This document shows, piece by piece, positions 24,752-36,759 of a DNA stretch of 64,000 bases. Source of the DNA: a virus (lineage: Duplodnaviria; Caudoviricetes); the IMG/VR virus record IMGVR_UViG_3300038679_000357, positions 1 to 64,000 of that record. One strand, 5' to 3'. The notes beneath the pieces were generated by a model. It worked only from the letters and a program-made list of their open reading frames with translations. It ran no database searches and was not told the origin of the DNA. The first letter of the stretch is position 1; the number at the start of each line of letters is the position of its first letter. Made by a program: the position numbers and the translations under genes.

Positions 24752-24830
24752 GGACGCCAGTCGGCGTCCTGAAAGTTAATCGAGGTTTCTAACATCGGGC
24801 TCAAGGCAAAACCTCTTAACACCTTGAGTA
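24752..24830 (-). ncRNA. H-type pseudoknot plus hairpin
   Basis: CTCAAGG/CCTTGAG crossed by GAGGTTT/AAACCTC; GGACGCC/GGCGTCC. Confidence 0.55.
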
Positions 24831-24835
24831 GGATT

Positions 24836-24914
24836 TGGTAGCGGGGGCAGGATTCGAACCTGCGATTCTGTGGTTATGAGCCACAAGTCCTGGACCGGGC
24901 TAGACGACCCCGCA
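24836..24914 (-). tRNA. tRNA(CAT), initiator-like
   Basis: Unpaired 1:72, GCGGGG acceptor, TGTGG-CTCATAA-CCACA. Confidence 0.85.
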
Positions 24915-25007
24915 GTCATTTGAAACTATAACTACTTCAAAAGAGATTTCAATCCCTTTTTCGGGAATTTTGAAGCAATGATACCTCCCGCAAGAGAACA
25001 CGGTGTT

Positions 25008-25334
25008 TCATATGGTGATTCCGCTACCGCAGATCTCCTTCTTGTCCATCAATCCGAAAACATTATTGCCATATGCGCCCTGCGGAAGCTCCTCGACATA
25101 GAACAGCTTCCTACCGATCTCGGCATAATTGAGGGGGCGGGCGACGATCGAAACCATATTGGCTGCCAGCAACTCATCATTCAACCATTGCGGAATGTAT
25201 CTCGCCGAATACTTCCGCCACTTCTTCATGGACCGCGCCTTGCGAGTCCGGATCTTGCAGAACGGCTTCGCAATCTCGATAAGCGGTACGCCGCGATGGA
25301 ACATCGGCACTATCGACTGGACGGTCGGTTTCAT
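25008..25334 (-). CDS. hypothetical protein with capsid-N-terminus-like motif
   Basis: RPLNYAEIGRKLFYVEELPQGAY. Confidence 0.6.
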   Translation of the reverse strand: MKPTVQSIVPMFHRGVPLIEIAKPFCKIRTRKARSMKKWRKYSARYIPQWLNDELLAANMVSIVARPLNYAEIGRKLFYVEELPQGAYGNNVFGLMDKKEICGSGITI

Positions 25335-25469
25335 ACGGGGAATCCCCCGTACTTGGTAGTCATGGTTTCGGATTTCAGAATCTTTACATTGCTATTTCCC
25401 GCCGCATCAGCGATGGCAGCGAGAATGAAATCAAGATTGTACAGGAGAACCAACACGGCGAACAAACCG

Positions 25470-25733
25470 TTATTTTGATTTTTCATGATCACACTCCTGA
25501 TCCGCCGATAATTTTTCGGACAAGGCGACGATCTTGTCAAAATTATTGGCGATCCAAGACGCAACTTCGACCGCCGTCCAATCCAACGTATCTTCCGATG
25601 TATACTTTTCGCGAATCATCACCTCAATTCTAGTCTTGAAGTTGCAGATCCGTTCATGGTTTAGTGCGTCATGCGCGTCATCGAACTCCTGTCCATCCGA
25701 CGTCCTGTACTTAATGACCTGAGTAATTGACAT
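25470..25733 (-). CDS. hypothetical phage protein
   Basis: KYRTSDGQEF..A..HE. Confidence 0.6.
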   Translation of the reverse strand: MSITQVIKYRTSDGQEFDDAHDALNHERICNFKTRIEVMIREKYTSEDTLDWTAVEVASWIANNFDKIVALSEKLSADQECDHEKSK

Positions 25734-25821
25734 GTTTTTTCTCTCTTTGCATGGTTGGAAACAATTTGATGTCGCTGACGTCCGTCCGACGTCCTGTATT
25801 TGAGCTATCCGATCCTAACGT

Positions 25822-26229
25822 TCAATCCGGACATATCTTACATTCTCCGTCAATCGACACAATTCGGCATTTGTGTTTTTTAAGAATTTCATCAATGGCG
25901 GTACGACAGCATATAACGTCTTTTTTATGCCAATTCACGGAGCTGTTTGGATCATTTCTAATCTCAGATATCAGAGAGCGAAGCGTATCATACAACCCAT
26001 GTCTGACATATAAGTTATCCATCGCATATCCAACATAGCTGATAGGAATGAGCCAGGGAAACACCAATACATATTCCCCCTTCCATTTCATAAACTTGTA
26101 CAGCCTGCATTGGTCAGAGAAATTATCACGGGTTTTGTCCACACGCAACCCTGGATACATTTCGACAAGGGAATCAACGATACGGAAAAAATCCCTGAGC
26201 GATATCTTTTCTACGCCTTCGGACGCCAA
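25822..26229 (-). CDS. hypothetical protein (start uncertain)
   Basis: ORF trimmed to exclude tRNA-Arg. Confidence 0.5.
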   Translation of the reverse strand: MASEGVEKISLRDFFRIVDSLVEMYPGLRVDKTRDNFSDQCRLYKFMKWKGEYVLVFPWLIPISYVGYAMDNLYVRHGLYDTLRSLISEIRNDPNSSVNWHKKDVICCRTAIDEILKKHKCRIVSIDGECKICPD

Positions 26230-26282
26230 TACGACAACGACATTACACAAACCAAGTTCTTGTGTCGTATCGACATCTGAAA

Positions 26283-26357
26283 TGGTGGTCCGGGCGGGAA
26301 TCGAACCCACATCACCAACTTCGGAGGCTGGCGCACTATCCGTTGTGCTACTGGACC
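26283..26357 (-). tRNA. tRNA-Arg(CCG)
   Basis: CCAGC-CTCCGAA-GTTGG. Confidence 0.95.
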
Positions 26358-26391
26358 GTATTGGTTTCTGGAGAGTATCTTCCACAACCTA

Positions 26392-26784
26392 CTACTCCTT
26401 AGTACAATATAAGTTGGCGTCGAATGTGCCAAACTGGGCACATGTCAAAATCGTACCTGCAGCAGTCAAATCACTCATCGCCATAACCATCCTCGGTACC
26501 GCACTCATATTCCACGAATGAATAATGACATTCTTTGGTCTATTGCTGGATGCAATGGAATTCATAAAAACTGCTGCCTGATACCCGGTATTCGAATCAT
26601 CGCTATTTACGAAAGCTTTTCCACCAAGGTCATGATCAAGAAAAACGACGTCGATGTCGCTCGCCAAATATGATGACTTAAACGCTTCTACAGTGGTGCA
26701 AATCGTTAAGTCGTGCGAATTGCCAAAGAGAGTTACAAACTTAGCGATCCGTAATGATTCATCTTCAAGTACAAGTATCTTCAT
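26392..26784 (-). CDS. cyclic-phosphate-processing receiver (cREC)-like protein, copy A
   Basis: ILVLED, FLDHDLGG, TGY, IIHSWN; ends TAG TAG. Confidence 0.75.
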   Translation of the reverse strand: MKILVLEDESLRIAKFVTLFGNSHDLTICTTVEAFKSSYLASDIDVVFLDHDLGGKAFVNSDDSNTGYQAAVFMNSIASSNRPKNVIIHSWNMSAVPRMVMAMSDLTAAGTILTCAQFGTFDANLYCTKE

Positions 26785-26848
26785 TTTTCTCTCCGTTTTG
26801 GAAGATATGCTAGTTACTGAAGATATGTTAGAAGAGGAGCTTTTCAAG

Positions 26849-26865
26849 TGGTAGTCCCACCAGGA
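26849..26865 (-). pseudogene. 3' fragment of tRNA-Gln(CTG)
   Basis: Identical to the 3' end of the tRNA at 27827. Confidence 0.75.
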
Positions 26866-26926
26866 TCGGACAATACGACAACGATATTGCACAAACCAAG
26901 TTCTTGTGCTATATCAACATCTGAAA

Positions 26927-26970
26927 TGGTGGTCCGGAGGCTGACGCACTATCTGTTGTGCTACTGGACC
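26927..26970 (-). pseudogene. tRNA-Arg(CCG) with 31-nt internal deletion
   Basis: Copy of 26283-26357 deleted between CGG microhomologies. Confidence 0.8.
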
Positions 26971-26997
26971 GTATTGGTTTTTGCGGTGGAGGTGGAT

Positions 26998-27390
26998 TTA
27001 CCGGCTTCGGCACCGTCGGGACCTCGTTGACCCCCTGCGCTTCACGCTCCCCTCCTTCATCGGCTGTGTCATTTCCTTCCTGAATGCCGCCATGACCTCG
27101 GAATCGCCAACCAATCTGTCCCGCATTTCACGGATGGCATCTGCCATCTCTGCCGCTGACATGTCGTAGGTTCCGTCGTTGTGAGCGGCGATACGGTTGA
27201 TCAACCTGGTGAACTCGACATTCCCGTATTCGTCGCTGTCCCATTTCGCGGTGGCGAGACGGTGGTAGGTGCCGGTGCCGTTGTGCTCGAACACGACGTC
27301 CAGCTCCTGCTCGTCGCCCGAGACGTCCTCCTGGTAGAAGACGATCCGCCTGATCTTCAATTCGTTCGACAACTTGATGGAGGTGGGCAT
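26998..27390 (-). CDS. hypothetical protein
   Basis: MPTSIKL..., TGATG-coupled, GC-rich. Confidence 0.6.
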   Translation of the reverse strand: MPTSIKLSNELKIRRIVFYQEDVSGDEQELDVVFEHNGTGTYHRLATAKWDSDEYGNVEFTRLINRIAAHNDGTYDMSAAEMADAIREMRDRLVGDSEVMAAFRKEMTQPMKEGSVKRRGSTRSRRCRSR

Positions 27391-27779
27391 CACCAACCTC
27401 CCGCCTTGAACGTCCCGAACGGAGCGGCGATGACCGACGTGCCGTCTGCGGCGACGGGTTGCAACGCCTGCAGTATCCTGCTGACACCGGACGGATTGAG
27501 GGAATGGACGATGACGGTGTGCGGGCGGCTGCCCTGCACCTCCATGAACGACGTGACGTGTTCGGCGGCACGGTAGCCGGTGTTCGATTCGTCGCTGTCG
27601 ACGAAAGCTTTTCCGCCGAGGTCGTGGTCGAGGAATACTAAGTCGGTGTGGCATTTTGCCATATACGACGACTTGAATGCCTCGACCGTGGTGCAAATCG
27701 TCAGATCATGCGAGTTACCGTAGGACTTGACGAACCAGGCGATGCGCTTGGGACAGTCTTCAAGTACGAGTATGTTCAT
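27390..27779 (-). CDS. cREC-like protein, copy B
   Basis: ILVLED, FLDHDLGG, TGY, IVHSLN. Confidence 0.75.
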   Translation of the reverse strand: MNILVLEDCPKRIAWFVKSYGNSHDLTICTTVEAFKSSYMAKCHTDLVFLDHDLGGKAFVDSDESNTGYRAAEHVTSFMEVQGSRPHTVIVHSLNPSGVSRILQALQPVAADGTSVIAAPFGTFKAGGW

Positions 27780-27826
27780 TGCTCTCTCCGTTTCTCGAAA
27801 ATATGCTCGAACGGACTATTTTCAAG

Positions 27827-27900
27827 TGGTAGTCCCACCAGGATTCGAACCTGGACAAACAGAGTCAGAGTCTGTTGTGCTACCGTTACACCAAGGGACT
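27827..27900 (-). tRNA. tRNA-Gln(CTG)
   Basis: ACAGA-CTCTGAC-TCTGT. Confidence 0.9.
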
Positions 27901-27987
27901 TGGTGCCTTCGGGGGGATTCGGACCCCCACGCCCTTGCGGGCACAGCGCCCTGAACGCTGCATGTCTGCCAATTTCACCACGAAGGC
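27901..27987 (-). tRNA. tRNA-Leu(CAG)
   Basis: CAGCG-TTCAGGG-CGCTG, variable arm. Confidence 0.95.
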
Positions 27988-28001
27988 ATTAAATGAAAAG
28001 A

Positions 28002-28077
28002 TGGTGACGGGTCTTGGGGTCGAACCAAGTTCTACGGTTTTTCAGACCGTCGCAATCACCGGACTTGCTCACCCGCC
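28002..28077 (-). tRNA. tRNA-Phe(GAA)
   Basis: ACGGT-CTGAAAA-ACCGT. Confidence 0.95.
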
Positions 28078-28082
28078 GTAAA

Positions 28083-28670
28083 TTATTTTCTACTTCTACA
28101 AAAAGTCCCCTGTTGGCTATTGCACTGCGGACAAAGTAACCGCAAATTTTCCATTCGATAATCTGTACTGATGCCGTTAATATGATCAAGAACCATCACC
28201 AGTGGTTTTCCACGCCATTCCGGTCCCTGTTTACATAAACAGCACTCATTTTTTACGATCCCATTCTTCAATAGATACCTCTTCGCAGTTCCTCTGTGTG
28301 CTTTTGATTCCACACAAAAGATACTTTCCAAAGGAAGAGATGGACGACGACCGCGACCGCAAGATTTTCCCTTCATATGAGAAAGGTCGACATTGTGCCT
28401 TGACACATATGAACGAACTGTATCATAATTACCAGGACGAATCGAAAGCCCGACTTTAAGTAATGCATCAGATATCGTCTCGGAATTCTTGATAGCATCC
28501 ATCATCTGGGCGTCGGTCCATTTCTTTTTTCGGAATGATTTTGGGGCGGTTTTTAACCCATACTTATCAAGCCAAAATCTAACTGTGGTTGGTGACTTTC
28601 CAAGTTTAGCCGATATTTGACGGATCGAAAGTCCATCGCTGATCAGTTCTTCAAGACAGCTCTTTTCCAT
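28083..28670 (-). CDS. HNH homing endonuclease with N-terminal HTH
   Basis: CCLC..LDHING..DYRMENLRLLCPQCN. Confidence 0.85.
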   Translation of the reverse strand: MEKSCLEELISDGLSIRQISAKLGKSPTTVRFWLDKYGLKTAPKSFRKKKWTDAQMMDAIKNSETISDALLKVGLSIRPGNYDTVRSYVSRHNVDLSHMKGKSCGRGRRPSLPLESIFCVESKAHRGTAKRYLLKNGIVKNECCLCKQGPEWRGKPLVMVLDHINGISTDYRMENLRLLCPQCNSQQGTFCRSRK

Positions 28671-28734
28671 AACAACATTTCCATTATTACTGATTTATCT
28701 CTAACACATACTGTCTTTATTATACCGTAGATGC

Positions 28735-28763
28735 AATTATACTACCAACTGAGCTATCCGTCC
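28735..28763 (-). pseudogene. 5' tRNA remnant
   Basis: GGACGGATAGCTCAGTTGGTAG then divergence, just upstream of the HNH gene. Confidence 0.6.
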
Positions 28764-28769
28764 ATAAAA

Positions 28770-28855
28770 TGGTACAGTCGGGGGGACTCGAACCCCCACC
28801 CCTTGCGGGACCAACCCCTCAAATTGGCGTGTTTGCCCAATTACACCACGACTGC
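28770..28855 (-). tRNA. tRNA-Leu(GAG)
   Basis: CCAAT-TTGAGGG-GTTGG. Confidence 0.95.
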
Positions 28856-28866
28856 ATTCTGAAAAT

Positions 28867-28950
28867 TGGTACCCGGAACAGGATTTGAACCTGCACGTCA
28901 AAGACACCAGATCCTAAGTCTGGCGCGGCTGCCAATTACGCCATCCGGGC
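28867..28950 (-). tRNA. tRNA-Leu(TAG)
   Basis: CCAGA-CTTAGGA-TCTGG. Confidence 0.95.
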
Positions 28951-28957
28951 ATCGAAA

Positions 28958-29037
28958 TGGTTGCTGCAGCAGGAATCGAACCTACTTTCCGACAGGGCAT
29001 GCGACCTGCCACGATCTCCGACCGTCCTACAGCAGCC
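28958..29037 (-). ncRNA. tRNA-like RNA with 8-nt anticodon loop
   Basis: GGCAGG-TCGCATGC-CCTGTC, canonical T arm, CCA. Confidence 0.65.
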
Positions 29038-29092
29038 ATACGGACGCAGCGCTACGTTACCGCATGGCATTATGTGGCTTTCGCCACGTAAA

Positions 29093-29187
29093 TGGTCCGT
29101 CAGGTGGGACTTGAACCCACATCAACCCCTTAGCCGGGGACATCCTTACCGTGTTAAAACACGGAATTTCCATTAGACGACTGACGA
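29093..29187 (-). ncRNA. tRNA-like RNA with hairpin inserted in the D loop
   Basis: GTCTAATGG[AAATT-CCGTGT-TTTA-ACACGG]TAAGGAT; loop CGGCTAA; T arm and CCA intact. Confidence 0.75.
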
Positions 29188-29188
29188 A

Positions 29189-29264
29189 TGGTGGCTCCAG
29201 CGGGAATCGGACCCGCGACCCACGCCTTAAAAGGGCGTTGCTCTACCAACTGAGCTACGGAACC
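29189..29264 (-). tRNA. tRNA-Lys(TTT)
   Basis: ACGCC-CTTTTAA-GGCGT. Confidence 0.95.
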
Positions 29265-29530
29265 GATACTTTTTCGTTAACATAAGTTAACAAATGCATG
29301 ATAGATGTTTAGTCCATCAAGGGGGTATCTCCCAAAGAAAGTTGCTGCGAACAGCAACTTTCGCATGGCTTGGTGGTCGTTTCGGTATGCCTTCTGGATA
29401 CTGAGAAACAAACCACTCAAACTCTAGTTGACAGTGATTGTCGGAAAACCGATGCAATATATCAACCATAATCTCTCAAATTATAGAGCCAATCTGCATG
29501 AAATTCAAGAACATAGAAAGATAAATCAAA
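29263..29530 (-). repeat. ~270 bp direct repeat, copy 1 (promoter, 50-aa ORF 29469-29317, hairpins)
   Basis: Near-identical to 33131-33408. Confidence 0.9.
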
Positions 29531-29621
29531 AATTCTTCAACAGTTAAATAGCCTTGAATGCTATCAAATTTGCAACTATAATATTGTTGGTCTAAAATTT
29601 AAACCACACAATGAGAAAACT

Positions 29622-30038
29622 TTGACAAAAACCATCGATTGTATCAGCTTTGATGAGAAAATTAAGGAAGCTCTTGGAGATCGCTTTAATGAGGCGACCG
29701 CATATAGTTCCTTTTACACCCAAAAGAAGATGAACAGAAATCTTAATATCCATGTCGTCTGTAAGGATTTAAAACCGCCGACGATTGGGACCTTCTTTGC
29801 TTTCAGTACAAGCATCTGTCTTTCTCCCGTAGAACCAGAAAAGATACTTTGGGCATTAGCAGTTCAATTAGTATATGCGTCAACAGTTGAAATGGGACAA
29901 TTTGAATTCAAGAACATCTTTCCAGAAAAAGAGGCGATTGACTACATTCAAGAATACAATCGATGTGGAATCGGAAGAATCACAATTCCTCATACATGGC
30001 TTGTGTGGTATGGCAATCACTCTTCCATATGCCAGTGA
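29622..30038 (+). CDS. hypothetical protein
   Basis: 138 aa ORF, TTG start. Confidence 0.5.
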   Translation: MTKTIDCISFDEKIKEALGDRFNEATAYSSFYTQKKMNRNLNIHVVCKDLKPPTIGTFFAFSTSICLSPVEPEKILWALAVQLVYASTVEMGQFEFKNIFPEKEAIDYIQEYNRCGIGRITIPHTWLVWYGNHSSICQ

Positions 30039-30061
30039 ATTTTACACCATTTTCCACTTCC

Positions 30062-30137
30062 TGGTGTCCCCACCGGGATTCGAACCCGGATTGACGGCGT
30101 GAGAAGCCGTTTTCCTAGCCATTTAGAAGATGAGGAC
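30062..30137 (-). tRNA. tRNA-Glu(CTC)
   Basis: ACGGC-TTCTCAC-GCCGT. Confidence 0.95.
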
Positions 30138-30145
30138 AGAAAAGA

Positions 30146-30253
30146 AACGGGAGACGGGACTCGAACCCGCGAAGCTCGCGCATTGGCAAGCGCCTCGATA
30201 CCAACTTCTCACTAACCACTCTTGTGAAGTGTGCCATATTACACCACTCCCGT
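30146..30253 (-). ncRNA. tRNA-Gly(GCC)-like RNA with ~30 nt insert after the D arm
   Basis: ACGGGAG/CTCCCGT, D arm, TTGCCAA loop, T arm; no encoded CCA. Confidence 0.65.
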
Positions 30254-30257
30254 TTCC

Positions 30258-30334
30258 TGGTGTCCCCGCCGGGGCTCGAACCCGGATTGGCGGCTTGAAG
30301 GGCCGCCCTCCTGAACCAGTTAGAGGACAGGGAC
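30258..30334 (-). tRNA. tRNA-Glu(TTC), C33
   Basis: GCGGC-CCTTCAA-GCCGC. Confidence 0.9.
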
Positions 30335-30350
30335 AAAAAGAACTTAAAAT

Positions 30351-30425
30351 TGGGTCGCCCAACCGGATTTGAACCGGTGCTAGATGTGCCACAAACATCT
30401 GTGCTACCACTACACCATGAGCAAC
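30351..30425 (-). tRNA. tRNA-His(GTG)
   Basis: GATGT-TTGTGGC-ACATC, G-1/C73. Confidence 0.95.
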
Positions 30426-30502
30426 TGGTGGAACTAGAGAGACTTGAACTCTCGACCCCCTGCGTGCCACGCAGGTGCTCTAGCCAACTGAGCTATAGCC
30501 CC
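30426..30502 (-). tRNA. tRNA-Ala(GGC)
   Basis: G3:U70, CCTGC-GTGGCAC-GCAGG. Confidence 0.95.
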
Positions 30503-30510
30503 ATTAAGAA

Positions 30511-30679
30511 AGCCACCGTTTCCACCGGACGGGGCGACCAATCCCCGCGAGTGGAAACAACGGCAAGAAGAAAATGTCCAGGACCCGTCGATCCTTACCC
30601 CATGATTCCGTATCGCGAATGAGAATGCATGGGACAACTACGATCATCAGCCTACGCGGGCGTAGACCGTAGCAGGACA
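30511..30679 (-). ncRNA. two unassigned structured RNA domains
   Basis: TGTCC/GGACA enclosing CTACG/CGTAG and CCCATG/CATGGG; GTTTCCAC/GTGGAAAC enclosing CGGGG/CCCCG. Confidence 0.5.
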
Positions 30680-30687
30680 AAAATTAT

Positions 30688-30819
30688 TGGTGCCCGCCAG
30701 CCGGATTCCAACCGACCTCAGCACCCGCCGGTGCCTTCGCTTCACTACTCCGTCCATATGCGAAAAGAACGGAGCCGACGTCGAACGAGTGGGTTTTGCA
30801 ATTCCCATTATGCGGGGCA
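30688..30819 (-). ncRNA. tRNA-shaped RNA (132 nt) with long arms
   Basis: Acceptor, TGGG/CCCA D stem, CTCCGTTC/GGACGGAG, variable arm GCACC/GGTGC, T arm, CCA. Confidence 0.7.
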
Positions 30820-30825
30820 TTAAAT

Positions 30826-30974
30826 TGGACCGCGTGGGGAGATTCGAACTCCCGGTACGGGCGTGTCGAGGTCCATGCGCATGGGCGCGGGATCGTTTCC
30901 GTACTTTATGCGGCTCAGCCACTTGGAACCTGCAGGAATGCGCATCCCTACAAGCCTCGCAGCCGCCACGCGGA
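30826..30974 (-). ncRNA. tRNA-shaped RNA (149 nt) with ~50 nt anticodon insert
   Basis: CCGCGTG/CACGCGG, GGGAT/ATCCC, GGGAG-TTCGAAT-CTCCC, CCA. Confidence 0.75.
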
Positions 30975-30976
30975 TT

Positions 30977-31053
30977 TGGTGCGCCCGACAGGAATTGAAC
31001 CTGCAACCTCGTGAGTAAGAGTCACTTGCTCTACCAGATTAAGCTACGGACGC
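30977..31053 (-). tRNA. tRNA-Lys(CTT)
   Basis: GTGA-CTCTTAC-TCAC. Confidence 0.9.
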
Positions 31054-31058
31054 ATGGA

Positions 31059-31163
31059 TGGAGCCGGAAGGGCGTCCCGCCGGACGTGCGTTCCCAACCG
31101 GCATAAAGGGTTCGGTAGGCGTCACGACAGGGGGCGAACCATCTTTGTCGCGAGGCGTACCGA
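31059..31163 (-). ncRNA. unassigned structured RNA ending in CCA
   Basis: TCGGTA/TACCGA, GCGACA/TGTCGT, CCGG/CCGG. Confidence 0.4.
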
Positions 31164-31170
31164 TATTTGT

Positions 31171-31247
31171 TGGTCGGCCCGACTGGATTTGAACCAGCGG
31201 CTTCTACGTCCCGAACGTAGCGCTCTACCAGGCTGAGCCACGAGCCG
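31171..31247 (-). tRNA. tRNA-Pro(CGG)
   Basis: CTACG-TTCGGGA-CGTAG. Confidence 0.95.
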
Positions 31248-31255
31248 ATCGAAAT

Positions 31256-31330
31256 TGGAGCTTCCCGGCAGACTTGAACTGCCCTCTGGGACTTACGAAA
31301 TCCCTGCATCGCCGACAATGCTTGGGAAGC
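31256..31330 (-). tRNA. tRNA-Thr(CGT)
   Basis: GGGAT-TTCGTAA-GTCCC. Confidence 0.9.
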
Positions 31331-31332
31331 AA

Positions 31333-31408
31333 TGGTAGTCCCACCTGGACTCGAACCAGAAGCTAGATGGATCAAAGCCATCTGTGCAAGCCATTACACT
31401 ATGGGACT
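31333..31408 (-). tRNA. tRNA-Gln(TTG)
   Basis: GATGG-CTTTGAT-CCATC. Confidence 0.9.
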
Positions 31409-31422
31409 AGAAATCTGGACCG

Positions 31423-31677
31423 CTACTTGGATTTAAACTTTCCAGGCAGCCAAAAACTTCTGAGGATGCGGTGGGCGCGGAGGAGTACCTTCTCCAGTTC
31501 GCCCTTATTGGTGCGGTCAATCGCGTCGAGGACGCGCTTCTCAGTACGCCACCCGTCGTGCCCCATTCCAGCTCTTTCGGCTATTTCATGCAACAGGTAG
31601 CTGTCACCGGACATAACTGCCGGAAACTCCTTCTCCCTGAGATATTCGGCGGCGATAGCCGCAACCGACTTTTTCAT
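31423..31677 (-). CDS. hypothetical protein
   Basis: 84 aa, AAGGA SD. Confidence 0.6.
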   Translation of the reverse strand: MKKSVAAIAAEYLREKEFPAVMSGDSYLLHEIAERAGMGHDGWRTEKRVLDAIDRTNKGELEKVLLRAHRILRSFWLPGKFKSK

Positions 31678-31779
31678 GGCATTTCCTTGTGATTGATGGA
31701 GCTGACGTGGGCGAAACACTCATTTACCGTAGTGCTGCCAGAGTACCGGCAAATCCATTTTCTATCCTTTATAAAAAAT

Positions 31780-31876
31780 TTCAATCATGACCAACGGCGG
31801 ATTTCCAATGAAGCGCCTGTCCTTCCTCGCCGCCGTACAGCTTTCGCAGTGGACAAGTCCTCGGTCCATGATCGAA
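31780..31876 (-). ncRNA. candidate ~95 nt structured RNA
   Basis: ATCATG-GACC/GGTC-ATGAT closing stem, ACGGCGG/CCGCCGT, GGAC/GTCC. Confidence 0.45.
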
Positions 31877-31954
31877 TGGTGGAACTGACGGGGGTCGAAC
31901 CCGTGACCTACTGGTTGCGGACCAGTCGCTCTAGCCAAACTGAGCTACAGCCCC
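31877..31954 (-). tRNA. tRNA-Ala(CGC), C33
   Basis: ACTGG-TCCGCAA-CCAGT. Confidence 0.9.
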
Positions 31955-31966
31955 ATTATGAGATAT

Positions 31967-32043
31967 TGGTGGAACCTATCGGGTTCGAACCGATGACATT
32001 CTGCTTGCAAAGCAGACGCTCTAGCCAACTGAGCTAAGGCCCC
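31967..32043 (-). tRNA. tRNA-Ala(TGC)
   Basis: TCTGC-TTTGCAA-GCAGA. Confidence 0.95.
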
Positions 32044-32072
32044 ATTGAATATCCAAAATAATTAACAATTGG

Positions 32073-32672
32073 TTATTTTTTGCTTCGATTGAATCTCTTG
32101 CTCTTCCCTTTATTCAAATTTCCATAAGTCTCGGTCAAGCTATGACAATTAGGACATATAAGCTCTATGTTGGAAGGTCTACTGTTTGAACAATCACCAT
32201 CTATATGATGAACTGTAAGTGGAACCTTTTTTGTATGTTCGTTCATCTTATTCCACCCGCATTTTTGGCAACAATTATTATACTTTTCCAACAACCACCT
32301 TCTAACATAATTAGAAACTGCAATTGTGGAATCATTATTCGCGTTGCCACTTTCCTCACCAGAAAGCCATCGATCGATGTACTTCAGATAGCGATAATCG
32401 CAACTGCATTTAGACGAGCAAAAAGTATTTTTTCTTTGTTTATTATCGCCTCCACAATGAAGACATTTGGAAGTCCCCTTCCTTTTCTTCCTGGCGTTGT
32501 TGTAGGAGGCCGAGCATGAAGAATTACAAAATTTTCTTTTCTTTGTATCACTAGGCTTTTCATACCCCTTTACCGTCAAGATTTCGCCACAATACAGACA
32601 AAAACACGGATCGTTATCGTATTTCTCCAAAGCTCTTTTTCTTAGTACACCGATACTGTCTGACATTTTCAA
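32073..32672 (-). CDS. HNH homing endonuclease
   Basis: CQKC..VHHIDG..NIELICPNCHS; N-terminal Cys motifs. Confidence 0.85.
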   Translation of the reverse strand: MKMSDSIGVLRKRALEKYDNDPCFCLYCGEILTVKGYEKPSDTKKRKFCNSSCSASYNNARKKRKGTSKCLHCGGDNKQRKNTFCSSKCSCDYRYLKYIDRWLSGEESGNANNDSTIAVSNYVRRWLLEKYNNCCQKCGWNKMNEHTKKVPLTVHHIDGDCSNSRPSNIELICPNCHSLTETYGNLNKGKSKRFNRSKK

Positions 32673-32746
32673 TCTCCTGAAGTTATTCAGGAGTATTCCG
32701 AAATGTCAACGACAATCCCTTTGTTGATATAGTAGCAATTTCGACT

Positions 32747-32820
32747 TGGAGCGTCCAGCGGGAATCGAACCCGCCTGACCAGCTTGGGAAGCTGGGACAT
32801 TACCACTATGCTATGGACGC
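32747..32820 (-). tRNA. tRNA-Gly(CCC)
   Basis: CCAGC-TTCCCAA-GCTGG. Confidence 0.95.
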
Positions 32821-33030
32821 ACGGCTCCCGGTCGAGCAGGAGCTAATGCCCTTCATCCGACTACGCTCTCGACAGCTTCCGCGCCGGATGAAGAGACTTG
32901 GAGCGTCCGGCGGGAATTGAACCCGCCTATCCACGTTGGCAACGTGGAGCATTACCACTATGCTACGGACGCACGGCTCCCGGTCGAGCAGGAGCTTAAT
33001 ACCCTTCACCGTACTACGCTCTCGACAGCT
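32821..33030 (-). repeat. duplicated ~58 nt leader abutting both Gly tRNAs (32821-32878, 32973-33030)
   Basis: acggctcccggtcgagcaggagct...ctacgctctcgacagctt occurs twice. Confidence 0.85.
32899..32972 (-). tRNA. tRNA-Gly(GCC)
   Basis: CCACG-TTGCCAA-CGTGG. Confidence 0.95.
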
Positions 33031-33130
33031 TACATGCACTGTGTCAATGATACTCGGTAGAGTATCCACACTTTCTACACGTTAGATTCCTCTGCGTTGA
33101 TTGTCAAGTGGTCTCGACATCTTCGGCGTT

Positions 33131-33408
33131 CCGATACTTTTTCGTTAACATAAGTTAACAAATGCATGATAGATGTTTAGTCCATCAAGGGGGTATCTCC
33201 CAAAGAAAGTTGCTGCGAACAGCGACTTTCGCATGGCTTGGTGGTCGTTTCGGTATGCCTTCTGGATACTGAGAAACAACTAGCTGACAGTGATTGTCGG
33301 AAAACCGATGCAATATGTCAACCATAATCTCTCAAATTCATAGAGCCAATCTGCATGAAATTCAAGAACATAGAAAGATAAATCAAAAAATTATTCAACA
33401 GTTAAACA
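33131..33408 (-). repeat. ~270 bp direct repeat, copy 2 (46-aa ORF 33325-33185)
   Basis: Near-identical to 29263-29530. Confidence 0.9.
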
Positions 33409-33466
33409 ACCCTTTCGGGTATCGTTCCGTTTTTACGATCGGGCGTCCATTTGCCCACACTTCGGT

Positions 33467-33542
33467 TGGAGCCCGCGCCCGGAATTGGACCGGGGACCTT
33501 CAACTTACCAAGTTGACGCTCTACCAACTGAGCTACGTGGGC
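33467..33542 (-). tRNA. tRNA-Thr(GGT)
   Basis: TCAAC-TTGGTAA-GTTGA. Confidence 0.95.
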
Positions 33543-33554
33543 ATTAAAAAGAAT

Positions 33555-33721
33555 CCGACCGACCGGCGGGAGTCGAACCCGCAAATAATGCCCGCGTTGG
33601 ACTGCAGACATTTGGACGGTTTTTGCCATGATTCCAAACTACGCAGGATCGCCCTGCGCGGTCATTCCTTGTTAACGGCTTGACCTCGACCGTGTATGCC
33701 ATTTCCACCACGGTCAGTCGG
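33555..33721 (-). ncRNA. tRNA-shaped RNA (167 nt) with four hairpins replacing the anticodon arm
   Basis: 11-bp acceptor CCGACTGACCG/CGGTCGGTCGG, Leu-type D arm, canonical T arm. Confidence 0.8.
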
Positions 33722-33734
33722 CTTCTTTGATTAT

Positions 33735-34391
33735 TTATTCCTTAGACAATTCGACGTTCCAGTACAATCTTGACAAGAACCTTTCCCACTGTTGTGGTAT
33801 TTGGATCGGAGCGATAATCTTCCGAGAGCGCCGACTGTTTCTAATTTCAGTTGAAGTTGGCACATACGGCTTTTTCATCAGCTTCATGCCAGCTTCGTCT
33901 GGGAGCATGTCCTTCTTCTTATCGTTGCAAGAAATACAGGAGAGGACGATGTTCGTCCATTCTGTACGTCCGCCACGACACCTTGGAATGACGTGATCGA
34001 GATTCAAGGTCGTTTCTTCCTCGGTTGCGCCACAGTATTGACACTTATGGCGGTCTCGAATAAAAAGATTTATCCTTGAGAATCTCGCTGGGAGTTTGCC
34101 ATTCTTGCCGTCCAACCGACTACAGGTTGAGGCATGGTTGTAATAACGAAGAGCGATAACATGCGGGACTGGCAGTTCTCCAGAAGCGAGTTTAATCACT
34201 TCCTTTTCAGAGGCAATGCAAAGATCCTTTGCAGCCTGCCAATCTCCGAGCCACTCATCGAACGACCTTGCCTGGTCGTATTCATCGATGACATCAGCTC
34301 TTTCATTATAGAGGAGTTGTACGGCTCTGTGTAGAGAAACGGAATAGACAGCCTGCCGCAAGGCGTCTAACACCAACACTGGATGTTTCAT
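33735..34391 (-). CDS. HNH endonuclease (McrA-like)
   Basis: NLFIRDRHKCQYCG, LDHVIPR, WTNIVLSCISCNDKK. Confidence 0.9.
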   Translation of the reverse strand: MKHPVLVLDALRQAVYSVSLHRAVQLLYNERADVIDEYDQARSFDEWLGDWQAAKDLCIASEKEVIKLASGELPVPHVIALRYYNHASTCSRLDGKNGKLPARFSRINLFIRDRHKCQYCGATEEETTLNLDHVIPRCRGGRTEWTNIVLSCISCNDKKKDMLPDEAGMKLMKKPYVPTSTEIRNSRRSRKIIAPIQIPQQWERFLSRLYWNVELSKE

Positions 34392-34455
34392 GGCATGTCC
34401 TTTTTCGTTGTTTCCCTACTCCGTTATTCAACGGGAGATAGGCGGTTTCTTGTTT

Positions 34456-34544
34456 TGGTGGGTGCTGAAGGAGTTGAACCTTCCGCCCGCCGCCGCACAT
34501 ATTAAAGGCGCGGGTTTTACAGACCCGCGTGTGGAACAGCACCC
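34456..34544 (-). tRNA. tRNA-Tyr(GTA) apparently lacking a D arm
   Basis: GGGTGCT/AGCACCC, GCGGGT-CTGTAAA-ACCCGC, long variable region, CCA. Confidence 0.75.
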
Positions 34545-35020
34545 ATTTTTCTTCCAGGGCAATAAGTTTCAGTCTGAGAGTGACAATTAGGGCATAAGAT
34601 GCGTAAATTTTGCATTCTATTATCGCGTGAATCTCCATTTATATGGTCTAAATGCAAAACCAACTTTTTTCCCCTCCACATTGGTAGTAACCCACATTCG
34701 CTACACTCATTCTTCAGAATGTCCAATTTGAATAGCTTGTGCTTCAAATTATGAGACGTCCATCCGGGACCATCCTTTACAAGAACATCTTTTATGAATT
34801 GTTCCTTGGAACGACAACCCTTCAGGGCACTAGCTCGATTGCGCTCTGATATGTCGAAATGGGAAGTGTTTATTCCATAAGATAGAACCTTTTTGCGAAA
34901 AATCTCATAATTACTCCCTCTCGGAATAAGACCCATGGATCGCATCGCTTCAGATATTGAATTGCTTTTAGAAATTGCTTCTGCAATTTCTTCCCTACTG
35001 TATGGAGCTTTTCTTGGCAT
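34517..35020 (-). CDS. HNH homing endonuclease
   Basis: CSEC..LDHINGDSRDNRMQNLRILCPNCHSQT; stop inside the tRNA-Tyr anticodon loop. Confidence 0.85.
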   Translation of the reverse strand: MPRKAPYSREEIAEAISKSNSISEAMRSMGLIPRGSNYEIFRKKVLSYGINTSHFDISERNRASALKGCRSKEQFIKDVLVKDGPGWTSHNLKHKLFKLDILKNECSECGLLPMWRGKKLVLHLDHINGDSRDNRMQNLRILCPNCHSQTETYCPGRKMGAVPHAGL

Positions 35021-35034
35021 AAACACCTTCCTTC

Positions 35035-35111
35035 TGGTATCCCGAGTGGGACTCGAACCCACACCATTGGGAGCTTAAATCCCATGCATCTGCCAATTGT
35101 GCTACCGGGAC
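35035..35111 (-). tRNA. tRNA-Leu(TAA) without long variable arm
   Basis: TGGGA-TTTAAGC-TCCCA, 5-nt variable loop. Confidence 0.85.
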
Positions 35112-35122
35112 GATCTTGATGC

Positions 35123-35198
35123 TGGAGCCAGCGATCGGATTTGAACCGATGACATCCTGCTTACAAGGCAGGTGCTCTACCAACTGAGCTACGCAGGC
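35123..35198 (-). tRNA. tRNA-Thr(TGT)
   Basis: CCTGC-CTTGTAA-GCAGG. Confidence 0.95.
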
Positions 35199-35234
35199 AA
35201 TCTAAGATACCAATTAAATCACGAAATTCAATAT

Positions 35235-35311
35235 TGGTACCGCAGGGGGGACTCGAACCCCCAACATTCAGATTTTGAATCTGACGCGACTGCCAATTGC
35301 ACCACTGCGGC
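35235..35311 (-). tRNA. tRNA-Leu(CAA) without long variable arm
   Basis: TCAGA-TTCAAAA-TCTGA, 5-nt variable loop. Confidence 0.85.
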
Positions 35312-35317
35312 ATGAAA

Positions 35318-35394
35318 TGGTCGGTCCGGCGAGAATTGAACTCGCGACCTTCTGCTCCCAAGGCAGACGCGCTACCAAACTGCGCTACGAACCG
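35318..35394 (-). tRNA. tRNA-Pro(TGG)
   Basis: TCTGC-CTTGGGA-GCAGA. Confidence 0.95.
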
Positions 35395-35446
35395 ACTGAA
35401 AAGAAACGCTGGACGCTCTAACATTTTCTGAGCTATCTCCTGGCGC

Positions 35447-35522
35447 TGGTGGGCGGTAAAGGACTTGAACCTTTATTTTGGCGTTCGTAGCGCCATGTCC
35501 TATCCTGTTGAACGAACTGCCC
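35447..35522 (-). tRNA. tRNA-Arg(ACG)
   Basis: TGGCG-CTACGAA-CGCCA. Confidence 0.9.
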
Positions 35523-36159
35523 ATGTTGATTTTACCTTGTCAACCCATCCTTGCAATCTATTACGAAGGGTCGTATCGTTGACGGAAACAGAGACAATGC
35601 CATACTGCGATCTCCTATTGGATACTTGCTTTTTTTCTTGGAAATGTATGTCATCTTGATGAACTCCAAGGGCATCAGCCCAAAAATCTCTCAGCTTTGG
35701 CAGCTCGCTCTTCTCGCACCACAATCTAATTTTCACCCTTCTGACCGAAAACAATTTAAGATGTTCGAAGCACAATAAAATAATCAAAGGATCTGTATTG
35801 GCTACCATTACAGAGTTTTTCGATCTCCGATGTCCCTCTCCAATATAAATACACACAAAGTCTCTCACAAGGAGATTTTTCTCCATTAACACATCGGCTT
35901 CATCCCACCCTGCTTTGTACGCTGCCTCTCTCTGCAAACGCCACTTCCACTGAGTGTCTCTCCCCTTGGTCTTCTCACCATTTTTTCTCCTAGCCCTCTG
36001 CTGAATATTTTCGCCATCAATTTCAGGGACGTCCATATCTTTTATCCAGCTATAAACAGTTGCCTTAGATGCCCCGAATGTTTGTACAAGAGTAGGGAGA
36101 GACGCTCCTTGACTTCTCATTCTTCTCACTTCTTGGATAATCTCATTTCCGTATTTCAT
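35500..36159 (-). CDS. HTH plus LAGLIDADG-like putative endonuclease
   Basis: N-terminal HTH (ASKATVYSWI), CIYIGEG..NTDP; stop inside the tRNA-Arg D loop. Confidence 0.6.
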   Translation of the reverse strand: MKYGNEIIQEVRRMRSQGASLPTLVQTFGASKATVYSWIKDMDVPEIDGENIQQRARRKNGEKTKGRDTQWKWRLQREAAYKAGWDEADVLMEKNLLVRDFVCIYIGEGHRRSKNSVMVANTDPLIILLCFEHLKLFSVRRVKIRLWCEKSELPKLRDFWADALGVHQDDIHFQEKKQVSNRRSQYGIVSVSVNDTTLRNRLQGWVDKVKSTWAVRSTG

Positions 36160-36255
36160 TTGAACCTCTGAGTATTTGATTCACACGACAAATGTCGCAG
36201 GTTTACTCAGACATGATTCTGGGTGAAATATCATTTTCCCTCTTTTGAAGACTGA

Positions 36256-36332
36256 TGGTCAACATGACTGGATTTGAACCAGCGACTTCTTGCTCCCAAG
36301 GCAAGCGCTCTACCAAGCTGAGCCACATGTTG
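36256..36332 (-). tRNA. tRNA-Pro(TGG), second copy
   Basis: CTTGC-CTTGGGA-GCAAG. Confidence 0.95.
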
Positions 36333-36335
36333 ACA

Positions 36336-36478
36336 ACGGCGGACGCCGATCGTCCGCCGGTTATCAATATCGAACACAGCACTCGTTGGCGGAGAGTGCT
36401 GTAGACTACTGCAAGTTGTCAATGAACCCGCTCGATTTCACTAGGATCTCCTATCTTCGTGAGGGTCGGCAACCCTGA
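36336..36478 (-). ncRNA. structured segment between attenuator 3 and the first tRNA
   Basis: GGCGGACG/CGTCCGCC, ACAGCACTC/GAGTGCTGT, AGGGT/ACCCT. Confidence 0.45.
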
Positions 36479-36515
36479 AAAACTTGAAGCCCGGAACCTT
36501 TTGGCTCCGGGCTTC
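36478..36515 (-). terminator. terminator of attenuator 3
   Basis: GAAGCCCGGAGCC-AAAA-GGTTCCGGGCTTC then AAGTTTTT. Confidence 0.8.
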
Positions 36516-36542
36516 TTAAAGCTTCCTGGAATTTTTCCTACT

Positions 36543-36659
36543 TCACCAGGTACTCAAAAGATCGGAGCCGTCTACCGTAAGTGGTAGATAACCGAACACG
36601 AATAACCCAACATGGGCTGCTCGTGCGGCGGGCTTTTGTTCTTTTGTGGTGATAATCAT
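36543..36659 (-). CDS. leader peptide MIITTKEQKPAARAAHVGLFVFGYLPLTVDGSDLLSTW
   Basis: AAGGA SD 10 nt upstream; 38 codons; between promoter and terminator. Confidence 0.7.
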   Translation of the reverse strand: MIITTKEQKPAARAAHVGLFVFGYLPLTVDGSDLLSTW

Positions 36660-36709
36660 TTTCGGACATTCCTTAGTTGCGGCTGCATGCCGCGTTGTTT
36701 TCTGAAAAC

Positions 36710-36738
36710 AATATAGGCTCGATAAACGACATTATCAA
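36710..36738 (-). promoter_or_regulatory. promoter TTGATA-N17-TATATT
   Basis: Third copy with identical hexamers. Confidence 0.8.
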
Positions 36739-36759
36739 CCTCTACTGCAAAAAAAACTT

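What the first reader, a model, noticed from the sequence alone, without database searches (positions are those of the whole stretch)
36478..36738. Third attenuator: broad-spectrum leader heading the ~10 kb main tRNA array
Third identical promoter, SD and a 38-codon leader. All 12 amino acids whose tRNAs lie downstream (P,R,L,T,Y,G,A,Q,K,H,E,F) occur in it: 27 of 37 non-start codons, including 13 in a row (TTKEQKPAARAAH). Asn and Cys, covered by the other two leaders, are absent. 1:2 pairing TCGG/CCGA plus TCTACC/GGTAGA; 2:3 pairing GGCTCCG (36563-36569) with CGGAGCC (36503-36509); then the terminator. The three leaders appear to partition the amino-acid alphabet (inference). The compositional match is statistically weaker here because the downstream set is large, and the U-tract is imperfect.
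Basis: partly seen in the sequence, partly recalled or inferred. Interest (0 to 1): 0.85.

Follow-up and report, generated by a model that had tools for sequence, protein, structure and literature searches.

The report
Leader-peptide attenuator gating phage tRNA array
A giant groundwater phage places a tiny translated "test" gene and a switchable transcription stop in front of its largest block of tRNA genes, so it probably makes those tRNAs only when ribosomes read the matching codons slowly; I found no published description of this control for tRNA genes.

Summary
On the minus strand at 36738-36476 lie a TTGATA-N17-TATATT promoter, an AAGGA ribosome-binding site, a 38-codon ORF and a 13-bp GC hairpin with an imperfect U tract. 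About 145 nt further on begins a run of some 30 tRNA genes.

The promoter pattern occurs only three times in the 255-kb genome. Each copy heads the same kind of unit in front of a tRNA block. In the two sister units the peptide composition mirrors the downstream tRNAs strongly. In this window's unit the match is weak on its own (count p about 0.1; 13-residue run p about 0.02).

New here: I found orthologous leaders in four other uncultured phages.
- The same frame stays open in all of them.
- The stop codon stays at the same RNA segment.
- The terminator shows compensatory changes.
- One ortholog has 29 of 32 residues in the tRNA set.
- Independent folds of three orthologs give the same three exclusive structures.

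I read it as a trp/ilv-style multivalent attenuator that senses decoding of Thr, Lys, Glu, Gln/His, Pro, Ala and Arg codons (confidence about 0.7). There is no expression data.

Earlier AI notes of this scan report the same kind of element in over 100 other phage genomes. They are not independent evidence. I found no published description.

The parts
36739..36757 (-). A/T-rich run (AAAGTTTTTTTTGCAG...) just upstream of the -35 hexamer, directly after the stop of the upstream gene. Possibly an UP element.
   Evidence: Sequence read. A similar T/A run precedes the promoter in the sister units and in the orthologs.
36710..36738 (-). Sigma-70-type promoter TTGATA-N17-TATATT. The likely transcription start is near 36703.
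   Evidence: Found by the promoter scan. It is one of only three matches in the 255-kb genome, and all three head a leader unit. A promoter at the same position, TTGAAA-N17-TATAAT/TATATT/CATTAT, is present in the orthologs.
36670..36674 (-). Shine-Dalgarno AAGGA, 10 nt before the ATG.
   Evidence: Sequence. AAGGA is the commonest 5-mer upstream of this phage's ORF starts. The spacing is 9-11 nt in all three units.
36543..36659 (-). Leader ORF of 38 codons plus TGA.
   Evidence: Listed. It is the only frame that stays open in all five orthologous leaders.
36612..36650 (-). Proposed sensor codons 4-16 (TTKEQKPAARAAH). Every residue has its tRNA gene in the downstream block.
   Evidence: The run overlaps and follows the 5' strand of the protector helix.
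36631..36652 (-). Segment 1: the 5' strand of the protector (anti-antiterminator), UCACCACAAAAGA plus GCCC.
   Evidence: MFE folds. The core CAAAAGA is conserved in L114, L116 and L126.
36543..36569 (-). Segment 2: GGCUCCG..UCUUUUGAG..CCUGGUGA. It pairs either with segment 1 (protector) or with segment 3 (antiterminator), and it contains the stop codon.
   Evidence: Duplex energies against shuffles give 1:2 P = 0.02 and 2:3 P = 0.001. The segment is conserved in a different reading frame in L116.
36503..36529 (-). Segment 3: CCAGG..GCUUUAAGAAG..CGGAGCC. It is the 3' strand of the antiterminator and includes the 5' arm of the terminator.
   Evidence: The fold of the transcript cut before the terminator's 3' arm shows this pairing.
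36486..36515 (-). Intrinsic terminator hairpin (segments 3:4), 13 bp with loop AAAA.
   Evidence: Found by the terminator scan. Across 4 orthologs it has 12 pairs: 2 with compensatory changes, 1 with a one-sided change, none broken.
36476..36485 (-). Imperfect U tract, AAGUUUUUCA.
   Evidence: The orthologs have AAGUUUUUU, AACUGUUU or AAUUUUUU.
36333..36475 (-). Conserved spacer between the terminator and the first tRNA. It holds two hairpins, one abutting the tRNA. Its function is unknown.
   Evidence: Sequence; conserved in L114 and L116.
36256..36332 (-). tRNA-Pro(TGG), the first gene of the controlled block.
22054..36332 (-). tRNA block 3: about 30 co-oriented tRNA genes (Pro, Arg, Leu, Thr, Gly, Ala, Gln, Lys, His, Glu, Phe, Met), interspersed with HNH-type and other small ORFs.
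   Evidence: The same gene order is found in L114/L134 and L116.
11726..11927 (-). Sister unit U2. It has the same promoter hexamers and the leader MKNVSVSIMCGSVSCSSGAPDSFA, with its terminator abutting tRNA-Ile. The block behind it is Ile, Cys, Ser, Met, Gly, Val.
   Evidence: An ortholog exists in L135.
3102..3304 (-). Sister unit U1. It has the same promoter hexamers and the leader MSFKNDNNWRDADDNTSSRLVVRS, with its terminator abutting tRNA-Asn. The block behind it is Asn, Asp, Trp.

Best explanation
This is a ribosome-mediated (leader-peptide) transcription attenuator that gates the largest tRNA gene block of a jumbo phage.

Proposed working (inferred from the anatomy):
1. Host RNA polymerase starts at the sigma-70-type promoter.
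2. A ribosome translates the 38-codon leader.
3. The start of the ORF (segment 1, codons 3-10) can pair with its end (segment 2). This 'protector' leaves the downstream GC hairpin free to terminate transcription.
4. If the ribosome reads through quickly, it stops at the UGA inside segment 2 and masks that segment. The terminator again forms.
5. If the ribosome is held up on the early codons (Thr, Thr, Lys, Glu, Gln, Lys, Pro, Ala, Ala, Arg, ...), because the matching charged tRNAs are scarce, it covers segment 1. Segment 2 then pairs with segment 3, which is the 5' arm of the terminator. The terminator cannot form, and the polymerase runs on into the tRNA genes for those same amino acids.

With two sister units (Asn/Asp/Trp and Ile/Cys/Ser/Met/Gly/Val), the phage would adjust each tRNA block to the demand for it.

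Shown here: the sequence parts, their conservation, and the alternative pairings as predicted folds. Inferred: that translation is coupled to transcription, that termination occurs, and the physiological signal.
For: (1) Architecture. Promoter, SD, short ORF, GC hairpin with U tract and co-oriented tRNAs are all present.

(2) Promoter class. TTGATA-N17-TATATT occurs only 3 times in 255 kb, each time at the head of such a unit.

(3) Sister units. They match their own tRNA blocks.
- U1: 9 of 23 residues in N/D/W, p about 0.001; the run NDNNW was seen in 0 of 200,000 random windows.
- U2: a run of 15 residues, all in V/S/I/M/C/G, p about 4e-4.
- In both, masking the sensor codons switches the predicted fold from protector to antiterminator.

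(4) Folds of this unit.
- The ORF RNA is unusually structured (z = -4.1); the whole leader has z = -8.0.
- As the transcript lengthens, the fold goes from protector, to antiterminator once segment 3 is out, to protector plus terminator at full length.
- Complementarity beats shuffles: 1:2 P = 0.02 and 2:3 P = 0.001.

(5) Orthologs in four other phages (neighbour protein 41-54% identical; same synteny and same tRNA order) keep the following:
- the promoter position;
- the ATG and an open leader frame (30-38 codons), the only frame open in all;
- a stop codon 0-8 nt from the CUUUUGA segment, although that segment is read in different frames;
- the terminator, with 2 compensatory pairs and none broken.

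(6) Ortholog peptides differ in sequence but stay in the tRNA set: L114 29 of 32 (p about 3e-4, run of 26), L126 26 of 31 (p about 0.01), L116 23 of 29 (p about 0.04).

(7) Independent MFE folds of WIN, L114 and L116 give the same three structures.

(8) The U2 unit is also conserved in the L114 phage.
Against: - The composition match of the window's own leader is not significant (27 of 37, p about 0.1). The tRNA set covers 62% of the proteome, so any peptide scores fairly high.
- The most distant ortholog, L125, shows no enrichment (21 of 31). Its predicted antiterminator is weak.
- Codon choice is no more diverse than chance.
- The U tract is interrupted (AAG before the U run).
- In the cut transcript the antiterminator is the MFE even without a ribosome. 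The switch therefore depends on folding order, which I could not compute.
- The terminator's 5' arm alone is not more complementary to the upstream RNA than in shuffles (P = 0.07).
- A conserved 145-nt spacer lies between the terminator and the first tRNA. It could hold another promoter or a processing site.
- Promoter-like sites and repeats inside the array may make distal tRNAs independent of the leader.
- No RNA data exist for this phage. The host is unknown.
Confidence: 0.72

Rival explanations
1. The unit is a general translation-capacity sensor rather than an amino-acid-specific one. Any slowing of the leading ribosome would let the polymerase read through, and the amino-acid content of this leader would be incidental.
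For: The window's leader is not significantly enriched for its tRNA set. It contains Val, Asp, Ser, Ile and Trp codons served by the other two blocks. L125 shows no enrichment.
Against: The sister units are strongly and specifically matched to their own blocks. The first 13-26 residues of WIN, L114 and L126 are purely in-set even though the sequences have diverged. Out-of-set residues sit mainly in the distal half, where by geometry a stall would not free segment 2.
Confidence: 0.1
2. The promoter, small ORF and terminator form a self-contained small gene or a small RNA. The tRNAs would be transcribed from other promoters, for example in the conserved spacer or inside the array, so the hairpin would be a plain terminator and not a switch.
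For: A conserved 145-nt spacer with a TTGACA motif separates the terminator from tRNA-Pro. Promoter-like sites and repeated elements lie inside the array. The peptide keeps a YL(L)P(L)T motif, with synonymous codon changes, among the orthologs.
Against: In U1 and U2 the terminator ends 8-10 nt before the first tRNA, which leaves no room for a promoter. No -10 element lies at a proper distance from the spacer's TTGACA in any ortholog (read by eye). Three unrelated small genes, each matching the tRNAs behind it, and a promoter class used nowhere else, are hard to explain this way. The conserved 1:2 and 2:3 alternatives are not needed for a plain terminator.
Confidence: 0.12
3. It is a protein- or RNA-binding riboregulator, such as a T-box-like tRNA sensor or a phage antiterminator target. 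The ORF would be fortuitous.
For: The RNA is highly structured. Uncharged tRNA is a natural signal for a tRNA operon.
Against: No T-box or any other Rfam family matches, even at E up to 10. Only chance hits to the terminator hairpin appear. The frame, its ATG and the position of its stop are conserved in five diverged leaders, while the other frames are not.
Confidence: 0.05

Closest known systems
Multivalent leader-peptide attenuators of enterobacterial amino-acid operons (ilvGMEDA, ilvBN, thr; also trpL, hisL, leuL, pheL). Known to me from established literature, not re-read here.
   Same: All share these parts: a promoter-proximal short ORF with SD, sensor codons placed on or just before segment 1, mutually exclusive 1:2 / 2:3 / 3:4 pairings, an intrinsic terminator before the regulated genes, and a leader that mixes several amino acids, as in ilv and thr.
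   Different: The regulated genes here are tRNA genes of a phage, not biosynthetic enzymes. The output (more tRNA) acts on the sensed quantity (decoding speed) directly. The sensor covers about 8-12 amino acids. Segment 1 is the very start of the ORF and segment 2 its end. There is no sequence or Rfam similarity.
pheM leader of the pheST operon (leader-peptide attenuation of an aminoacyl-tRNA synthetase). From my own knowledge.
   Same: Attenuation by a leader peptide controls a component of the decoding machinery rather than amino-acid synthesis.
   Different: pheM has a single amino acid, a protein-coding target, and is a cellular gene.
T-box riboswitches
   Same: They sense the state of a specific tRNA and act through a terminator/antiterminator choice.
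   Different: They need no translation and bind tRNA through a specifier codon and the T-box sequence. No such motif or Rfam match is present here.
Similar leader units reported by this scan in other phage genomes (AI notes)
   Same: They show the same design: promoter, codon-matched mini-ORF, switchable terminator, then a tRNA block. Several units occur per genome.
   Different: They are in unrelated genomes. I did not check them, and they are not published or independent evidence.

Membership tests
Leader-peptide (ribosome-mediated) transcription attenuators | A short ORF with a ribosome-binding site lies close behind the promoter and before the regulated genes. | tested here: met
   AAGGA sits 10 nt before the ATG, and the 38-codon ORF starts about 45 nt after the likely transcription start. 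The frame is conserved in 5 orthologs.
Leader-peptide (ribosome-mediated) transcription attenuators | The sensor codons are enriched for the amino acid(s) tied to the regulated genes. | tested here: inconclusive
   In the window: 27 of 37 in set (p about 0.1) and a run of 13 (p about 0.02-0.03). In the orthologs: L114 29 of 32 (p about 3e-4), L126 26 of 31, L116 23 of 29, L125 21 of 31. The feature is clearly met in sister units U1 and U2.
Leader-peptide (ribosome-mediated) transcription attenuators | An intrinsic terminator lies between the leader ORF and the regulated genes. | tested here: met
   A 13-bp GC hairpin is followed by AAGUUUUUC. It is conserved, with 2 compensatory pairs. The U tract is imperfect, and termination itself was not tested.
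Leader-peptide (ribosome-mediated) transcription attenuators | An antiterminator (2:3) excludes the terminator. | tested here: met
   It is the MFE of the transcript cut before the 3' arm in WIN, L114 and L116. The 2:3 duplex gives P = 0.001 against shuffles in WIN. The test on the terminator arm alone was weaker (P = 0.07).
Leader-peptide (ribosome-mediated) transcription attenuators | A protector (1:2) overlaps the sensor codons, so that the ribosome's position selects the fold. | tested here: met
   The ORF start pairs with the ORF end in the MFE of WIN, L114 and L116. The sensor run lies on and just after segment 1, and the stop codon lies in or next to segment 2 in all orthologs. This rests on predicted folds only.
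Leader-peptide (ribosome-mediated) transcription attenuators | Read-through rises when the cognate charged tRNA is limiting. | not testable with these tools
   No RNA runs hold this phage. A reporter assay or Term-seq is needed.
Leader-peptide (ribosome-mediated) transcription attenuators | The regulated genes are amino-acid biosynthesis, transport or synthetase genes (the classical scope of the family). | tested here: not met
   Downstream lie only tRNA genes and homing-endonuclease-like ORFs. This is the respect in which the element is a new variant.
T-box riboswitch (RF00230) | A covariance-model match, with specifier loop and T-box sequence. | tested here: not met
   There is no hit at the gathering score in the window, nor at E up to 10 in 36320-36760.
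Rfam amino-acid operon leaders (Thr, Leu, Trp, His, Phe leaders) | A covariance-model match. | tested here: not met
   Only a chance-level Thr_leader hit was found (15-17 bits against a gathering score of 55, E > 1). It comes from the terminator hairpin.

The most novel reading that the evidence does not exclude
The three leaders together would form a phage-encoded tRNA-pool homeostat. The 20 amino acids are split among three codon-matched attenuators, so each tRNA block is transcribed on demand when decoding of its codons slows. That could happen when host anticodon nucleases or host shut-off deplete particular tRNAs, or when phage codon usage outruns the host's supply. This would be a counter-defence and resource-tuning circuit built from a trp-style switch. 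It would be an ancient module, conserved and moved as a unit with the arrays among jumbo phages.
Probability: 0.4. Interest if true: 0.9.

Novelty: new variant of a known kind. Interest (0 to 1): 0.8.

Why it matters
How phages regulate their tRNA genes is largely unknown. These genes are usually treated as constitutive add-ons that fix codon bias or replace tRNAs cut by host defences.

A leader-peptide attenuator in front of each tRNA block would mean that the phage measures decoding speed codon class by codon class and replaces only what is missing. That is feedback acting directly on the translation apparatus. It would extend the classical attenuation paradigm to a new class of targets.

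It also yields simple predictions that can be tested with reporters. It gives a way to read, from sequence alone, which tRNAs a phage expects to run short of.

Tried and rejected
- Close relatives among cultured phages: none. blastn of the locus hit only tRNA-Pro genes. The best terminase hit is 24% identical.
- IMG/VR searches with the upstream protein, the RNR gene and the terminase gave no relative with a tRNA array.
- Phage NCTB, the best hit for the Tad6 domain, has no tRNAs.
- Pattern scans found only chance matches or copies already known. I tried the promoter+SD pattern, the U2 core and the U3 core in viral contigs, metagenomes and GTDB genomes.
- Read laying: the phage occurs in four groundwater metagenomes with identical sequence. 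This gave no variants for covariation and no RNA.
- Codon-level 'design' (each isoacceptor probed) is not supported by synonymous resampling, P = 0.4-0.6.
- A simple equilibrium stall model does not discriminate for this unit, because the antiterminator is favoured in the cut transcript whatever the mask. It does discriminate for U1 and U2.
- The leader peptide was too short for the protein search.
- I half-remembered that the E. coli tRNA-Phe gene pheV has a Phe-rich leader. I checked, and none is there in MG1655.
- Literature searches found no description of leader-peptide attenuation of tRNA genes.
- I could not reach the U1 ortholog in the 500-kb relative because the look-ups were exhausted.

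Full report
**What is there**

The window is the first 64 kb of a 255,142-bp uncultured phage record. The phage occurs in four groundwater metagenomes with identical sequence.

ARAGORN finds 46 tRNA genes, all but one on the minus strand. Rfam confirms 43 of them.

At the finding's coordinates the minus strand reads, in order:
- an A/T-rich run;
- TTGATA (36738-36733), 17 nt, TATATT (36715-36710);
- a small 5' hairpin;
- AAGGA (36674-36670);
- ten nucleotides later, an ATG that opens a 38-codon ORF (36659-36543, MIITTKEQKPAARAAHVGLFVFGYLPLTVDGSDLLSTW);
- a 13-bp GC-rich hairpin (36515-36486) followed by AAGUUUUUC.

tRNA-Pro starts 145 nt further on, at 36332. About 30 co-oriented tRNA genes follow, down to 22054.

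**Two sister units**

The same build recurs at 3304-3102 and at 11927-11726.

The pattern TTGATA-N16-18-TATATT occurs exactly three times in the whole genome, on one strand, and only at these three places. About 0.1 matches are expected by chance for a 12-base pattern. The spacers differ, so the promoters are 'identical' only in their hexamers and spacing.

AAGGA is the commonest 5-mer before this phage's ORF starts. It sits 9-11 nt before the ATG in all three units.

- U1 encodes MSFKNDNNWRDADDNTSSRLVVRS. It is followed at once by tRNA-Asn, tRNA-Asp and later tRNA-Trp.
- U2 encodes MKNVSVSIMCGSVSCSSGAPDSFA. It is followed by Ile, Cys, Ser, Ser, Met, Gly, Ser, Val, Val, Ser and Val tRNAs.

I compared each leader with random windows of the phage's own proteins.
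- U1 has 9 of 23 residues in its three-letter set (p about 0.001). Its run NDNNW was never matched in 200,000 draws.
- U2 has a run of 15 residues purely in its six-letter set (p about 4e-4).

In both units, masking the mRNA as a ribosome stalled on those codons would switches the predicted fold. The fold goes from a protector hairpin to one that sequesters the terminator's 5' arm. Masking later codons does not.

**This unit's statistics**

The downstream set (P, R, L, T, G, A, Q, K, H, E, F, M, and Y if counted) covers about 62% of the proteome. So 27 of 37 is unremarkable (p about 0.1). Only the 13-residue run is mildly unusual (p about 0.02-0.03).

No Tyr tRNA is detectable in the window. 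An odd tRNA-like stretch lies at 33557-33717, where relatives carry tRNA-Tyr.

Resampling synonymous codons shows that the variety of codons used is what the phage's codon usage would give (P = 0.4-0.6). The match is therefore at the level of amino acids, not isoacceptors.

**RNA structure**

The ORF RNA alone folds at -42.4 kcal/mol against -27.5 for shuffles (z = -4.1, 0 of 200 shuffles as good). The whole leader has z = -8.0.

I folded the transcript at growing lengths. Three states appear.
1. Once the ORF is complete, its start (UCACCACAAAAGA, codons 3-7, and GCCC at codon 10) pairs with its end (GGCU, UCUUUUG, UGGUGA).
2. Once the terminator's 5' arm is out but not its 3' arm, the best fold is a long antiterminator.
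3. At full length the best fold is protector plus terminator (-90.2 kcal/mol).

Both alternative partners of segment 2 are more complementary than shuffled controls: 1:2 P = 0.02 and 2:3 P = 0.001.

TCGG/CCGA is not used.

One weakness remains. In the cut transcript the antiterminator is favoured even without a ribosome. The decision must therefore rest on the order of folding, as in the classical cases, and I could not simulate that.

**Orthologs (new evidence)**

The gene upstream (36760-38091) carries a Tad6 anti-Thoeris domain. It has homologs at 41-54% identity on metagenomic contigs.

On a 500-kb JGI contig (L114, L134, L135), on a family of 4-12 kb contigs (L116-L120, L128, L130), and on two short contigs (L125, L126), the gene order is kept. 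That order is dNMP kinase, a 101-aa gene, the Tad6-domain gene, then a leader, then tRNAs. The tRNA order is nearly the same as in the window.

The intergenic leader is orthologous.
- The promoter sits at the same place: TTGAAA-N17-TATAAT, TATATT or CATTAT.
- The same ATG opens the frame.
- The frame is 33, 30, 32 or at least 31 codons long.
- The peptides are MITRTTKEHQPKRAGRGFAAYLLPLTGGSVLLR, MIRIATKEHKLQAVRCGFAAYLPPTEGSVF, MIRITTKEHKPQAAGRGFAVAAYLLPLTEGSV... and MKENLTSKSSLQPKPLCGYLPCLPYGSWLLIS.

This is the only frame open in all five leaders.

The peptides have diverged, yet they stay within the tRNA set:
- 29 of 32 (p about 3e-4, run of 26);
- 26 of 31 (p about 0.01);
- 23 of 29 (p about 0.04);
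- the most distant one is not enriched (21 of 31).

These are related sequences, so the p-values are not independent. Still, replacements such as Q/H, K/Q, A/K, A/G and H/R stay in the set.

The CUUUUGA segment is conserved although it is read in different frames: Leu-Leu-Ser, Leu-Leu-Arg, Val-Phe-stop. That points to an RNA role. The stop codon always lies within 0-8 nt of it.

The terminator keeps all 12 pairs. Two pairs have both sides changed, one has a single side changed, and none is broken.

Independent MFE folds of WIN, L114 and L116 give the same protector, antiterminator and terminator. L125 is less clear.

The U2 unit is also conserved in the 500-kb relative, with leader MNVSVSIMCGSSVCCSSGAPGSLA (18 of 23 in set) and the same tRNA block behind it.

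**Mechanism**

The anatomy fits a trp/ilv-style attenuator.
- No translation or fast translation: segment 2 is held by segment 1, or is covered by the terminating ribosome. The terminator forms.
- A ribosome delayed on codons about 3-16: segment 1 is covered, segment 2 captures the terminator's 5' arm, and transcription continues into the tRNA genes.

The output raises the supply of the very tRNAs whose shortage is sensed. That closes a negative feedback loop.

All steps beyond sequence, conservation and predicted folds are inference.

**Caveats**
- The imperfect U tract.
- The conserved 145-nt spacer of unknown role before tRNA-Pro.
- Possible internal promoters and repeats inside the array.
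- The unknown host.

**Comparison with what is known, and novelty**

No Rfam family matches the leader. That includes T-box and the amino-acid operon leaders.

The element meets the structural criteria of leader-peptide attenuators. It differs in its target, tRNA genes in a phage, and in the breadth of its sensor.

Six full-text searches found no description of such control. A remembered possible precedent at E. coli pheV is not there.

Earlier AI notes of this scan report the same design in more than 100 other phage genomes, and the two sister units of this genome. I used them as leads only. I verified U1 and U2 myself.

I classify the element as a new variant of a known kind of regulation. 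My confidence in the attenuator reading of this unit is about 0.7.

Noticed in passing
window 36760-38091 (-): The gene just upstream of the leader has a C-terminal Tad6 (type I Thoeris inhibitor) domain (PF25188, E = 5e-39). The trio dNMP kinase / 101-aa gene / Tad6-domain gene precedes the leader in all relatives found.
   Followed up: partly
L115 and L121-L124 compared with window 12517-36760: In more distant relatives the Tad6-domain gene is followed directly by the metallophosphoesterase gene. In the window that gene lies upstream of unit U2. The whole block-3 module (leader plus about 24 kb of tRNAs and small ORFs) is therefore absent at that site in those relatives, which suggests it is gained or lost as a unit.
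   Followed up: no
window 36333-36475 (-): The 145-nt spacer between the terminator and tRNA-Pro is conserved in L114 and L116. It contains GATAGGAGATC, TTGACAACTTGCAG and a 9-10 bp GC hairpin ending 3 nt before the tRNA. Its role is unknown: a processing site, a second control point, or an unusual promoter.
   Followed up: partly
window 8227-8298 and 33041-33112; 29263-29482 and 33131-33338: Two repeat families lie inside the tRNA arrays. One is a 72-nt element at 90% identity (with a TTGACA/TTGATA motif and a hairpin), of which one copy abuts tRNA-Ser(CGA). The other is a duplication of about 210 nt at 97-99% identity. They may be internal promoters or mobile pieces.
   Followed up: no
window 33557-33717, 29093-29187, 28958-29037, 30138-30255, 26849-26983 (-): Several odd or degenerate tRNA-like stretches. 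One lies where relatives have tRNA-Tyr(GTA). One is a long-arm tRNA called Val(AAC) whose anticodon loop reads UUUAACA. One is a partial duplicate of tRNA-Arg(CCG).
   Followed up: partly
window 18373-18447 (+) and 17097-18302 (+): The only plus-strand tRNA has anticodon CUA (amber-reading). It lies next to an IS605 OrfB/TnpB-like gene. A CUA tRNA is kept at the same relative place in the 500-kb relative (L134 20340-20416).
   Followed up: no
window 40385-40656: A 21-nt tandem repeat (about 11 copies) encodes an acidic heptad-like protein segment (Asp/Glu-Lys-Leu-Asp-Glu-Leu).
   Followed up: no
whole record: The window's own Tad6-domain protein is on record on a 340,706-bp contig elsewhere, so the phage genome may be larger than the 255-kb record. 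The terminase has no cultured relative above 24% identity.
   Followed up: no
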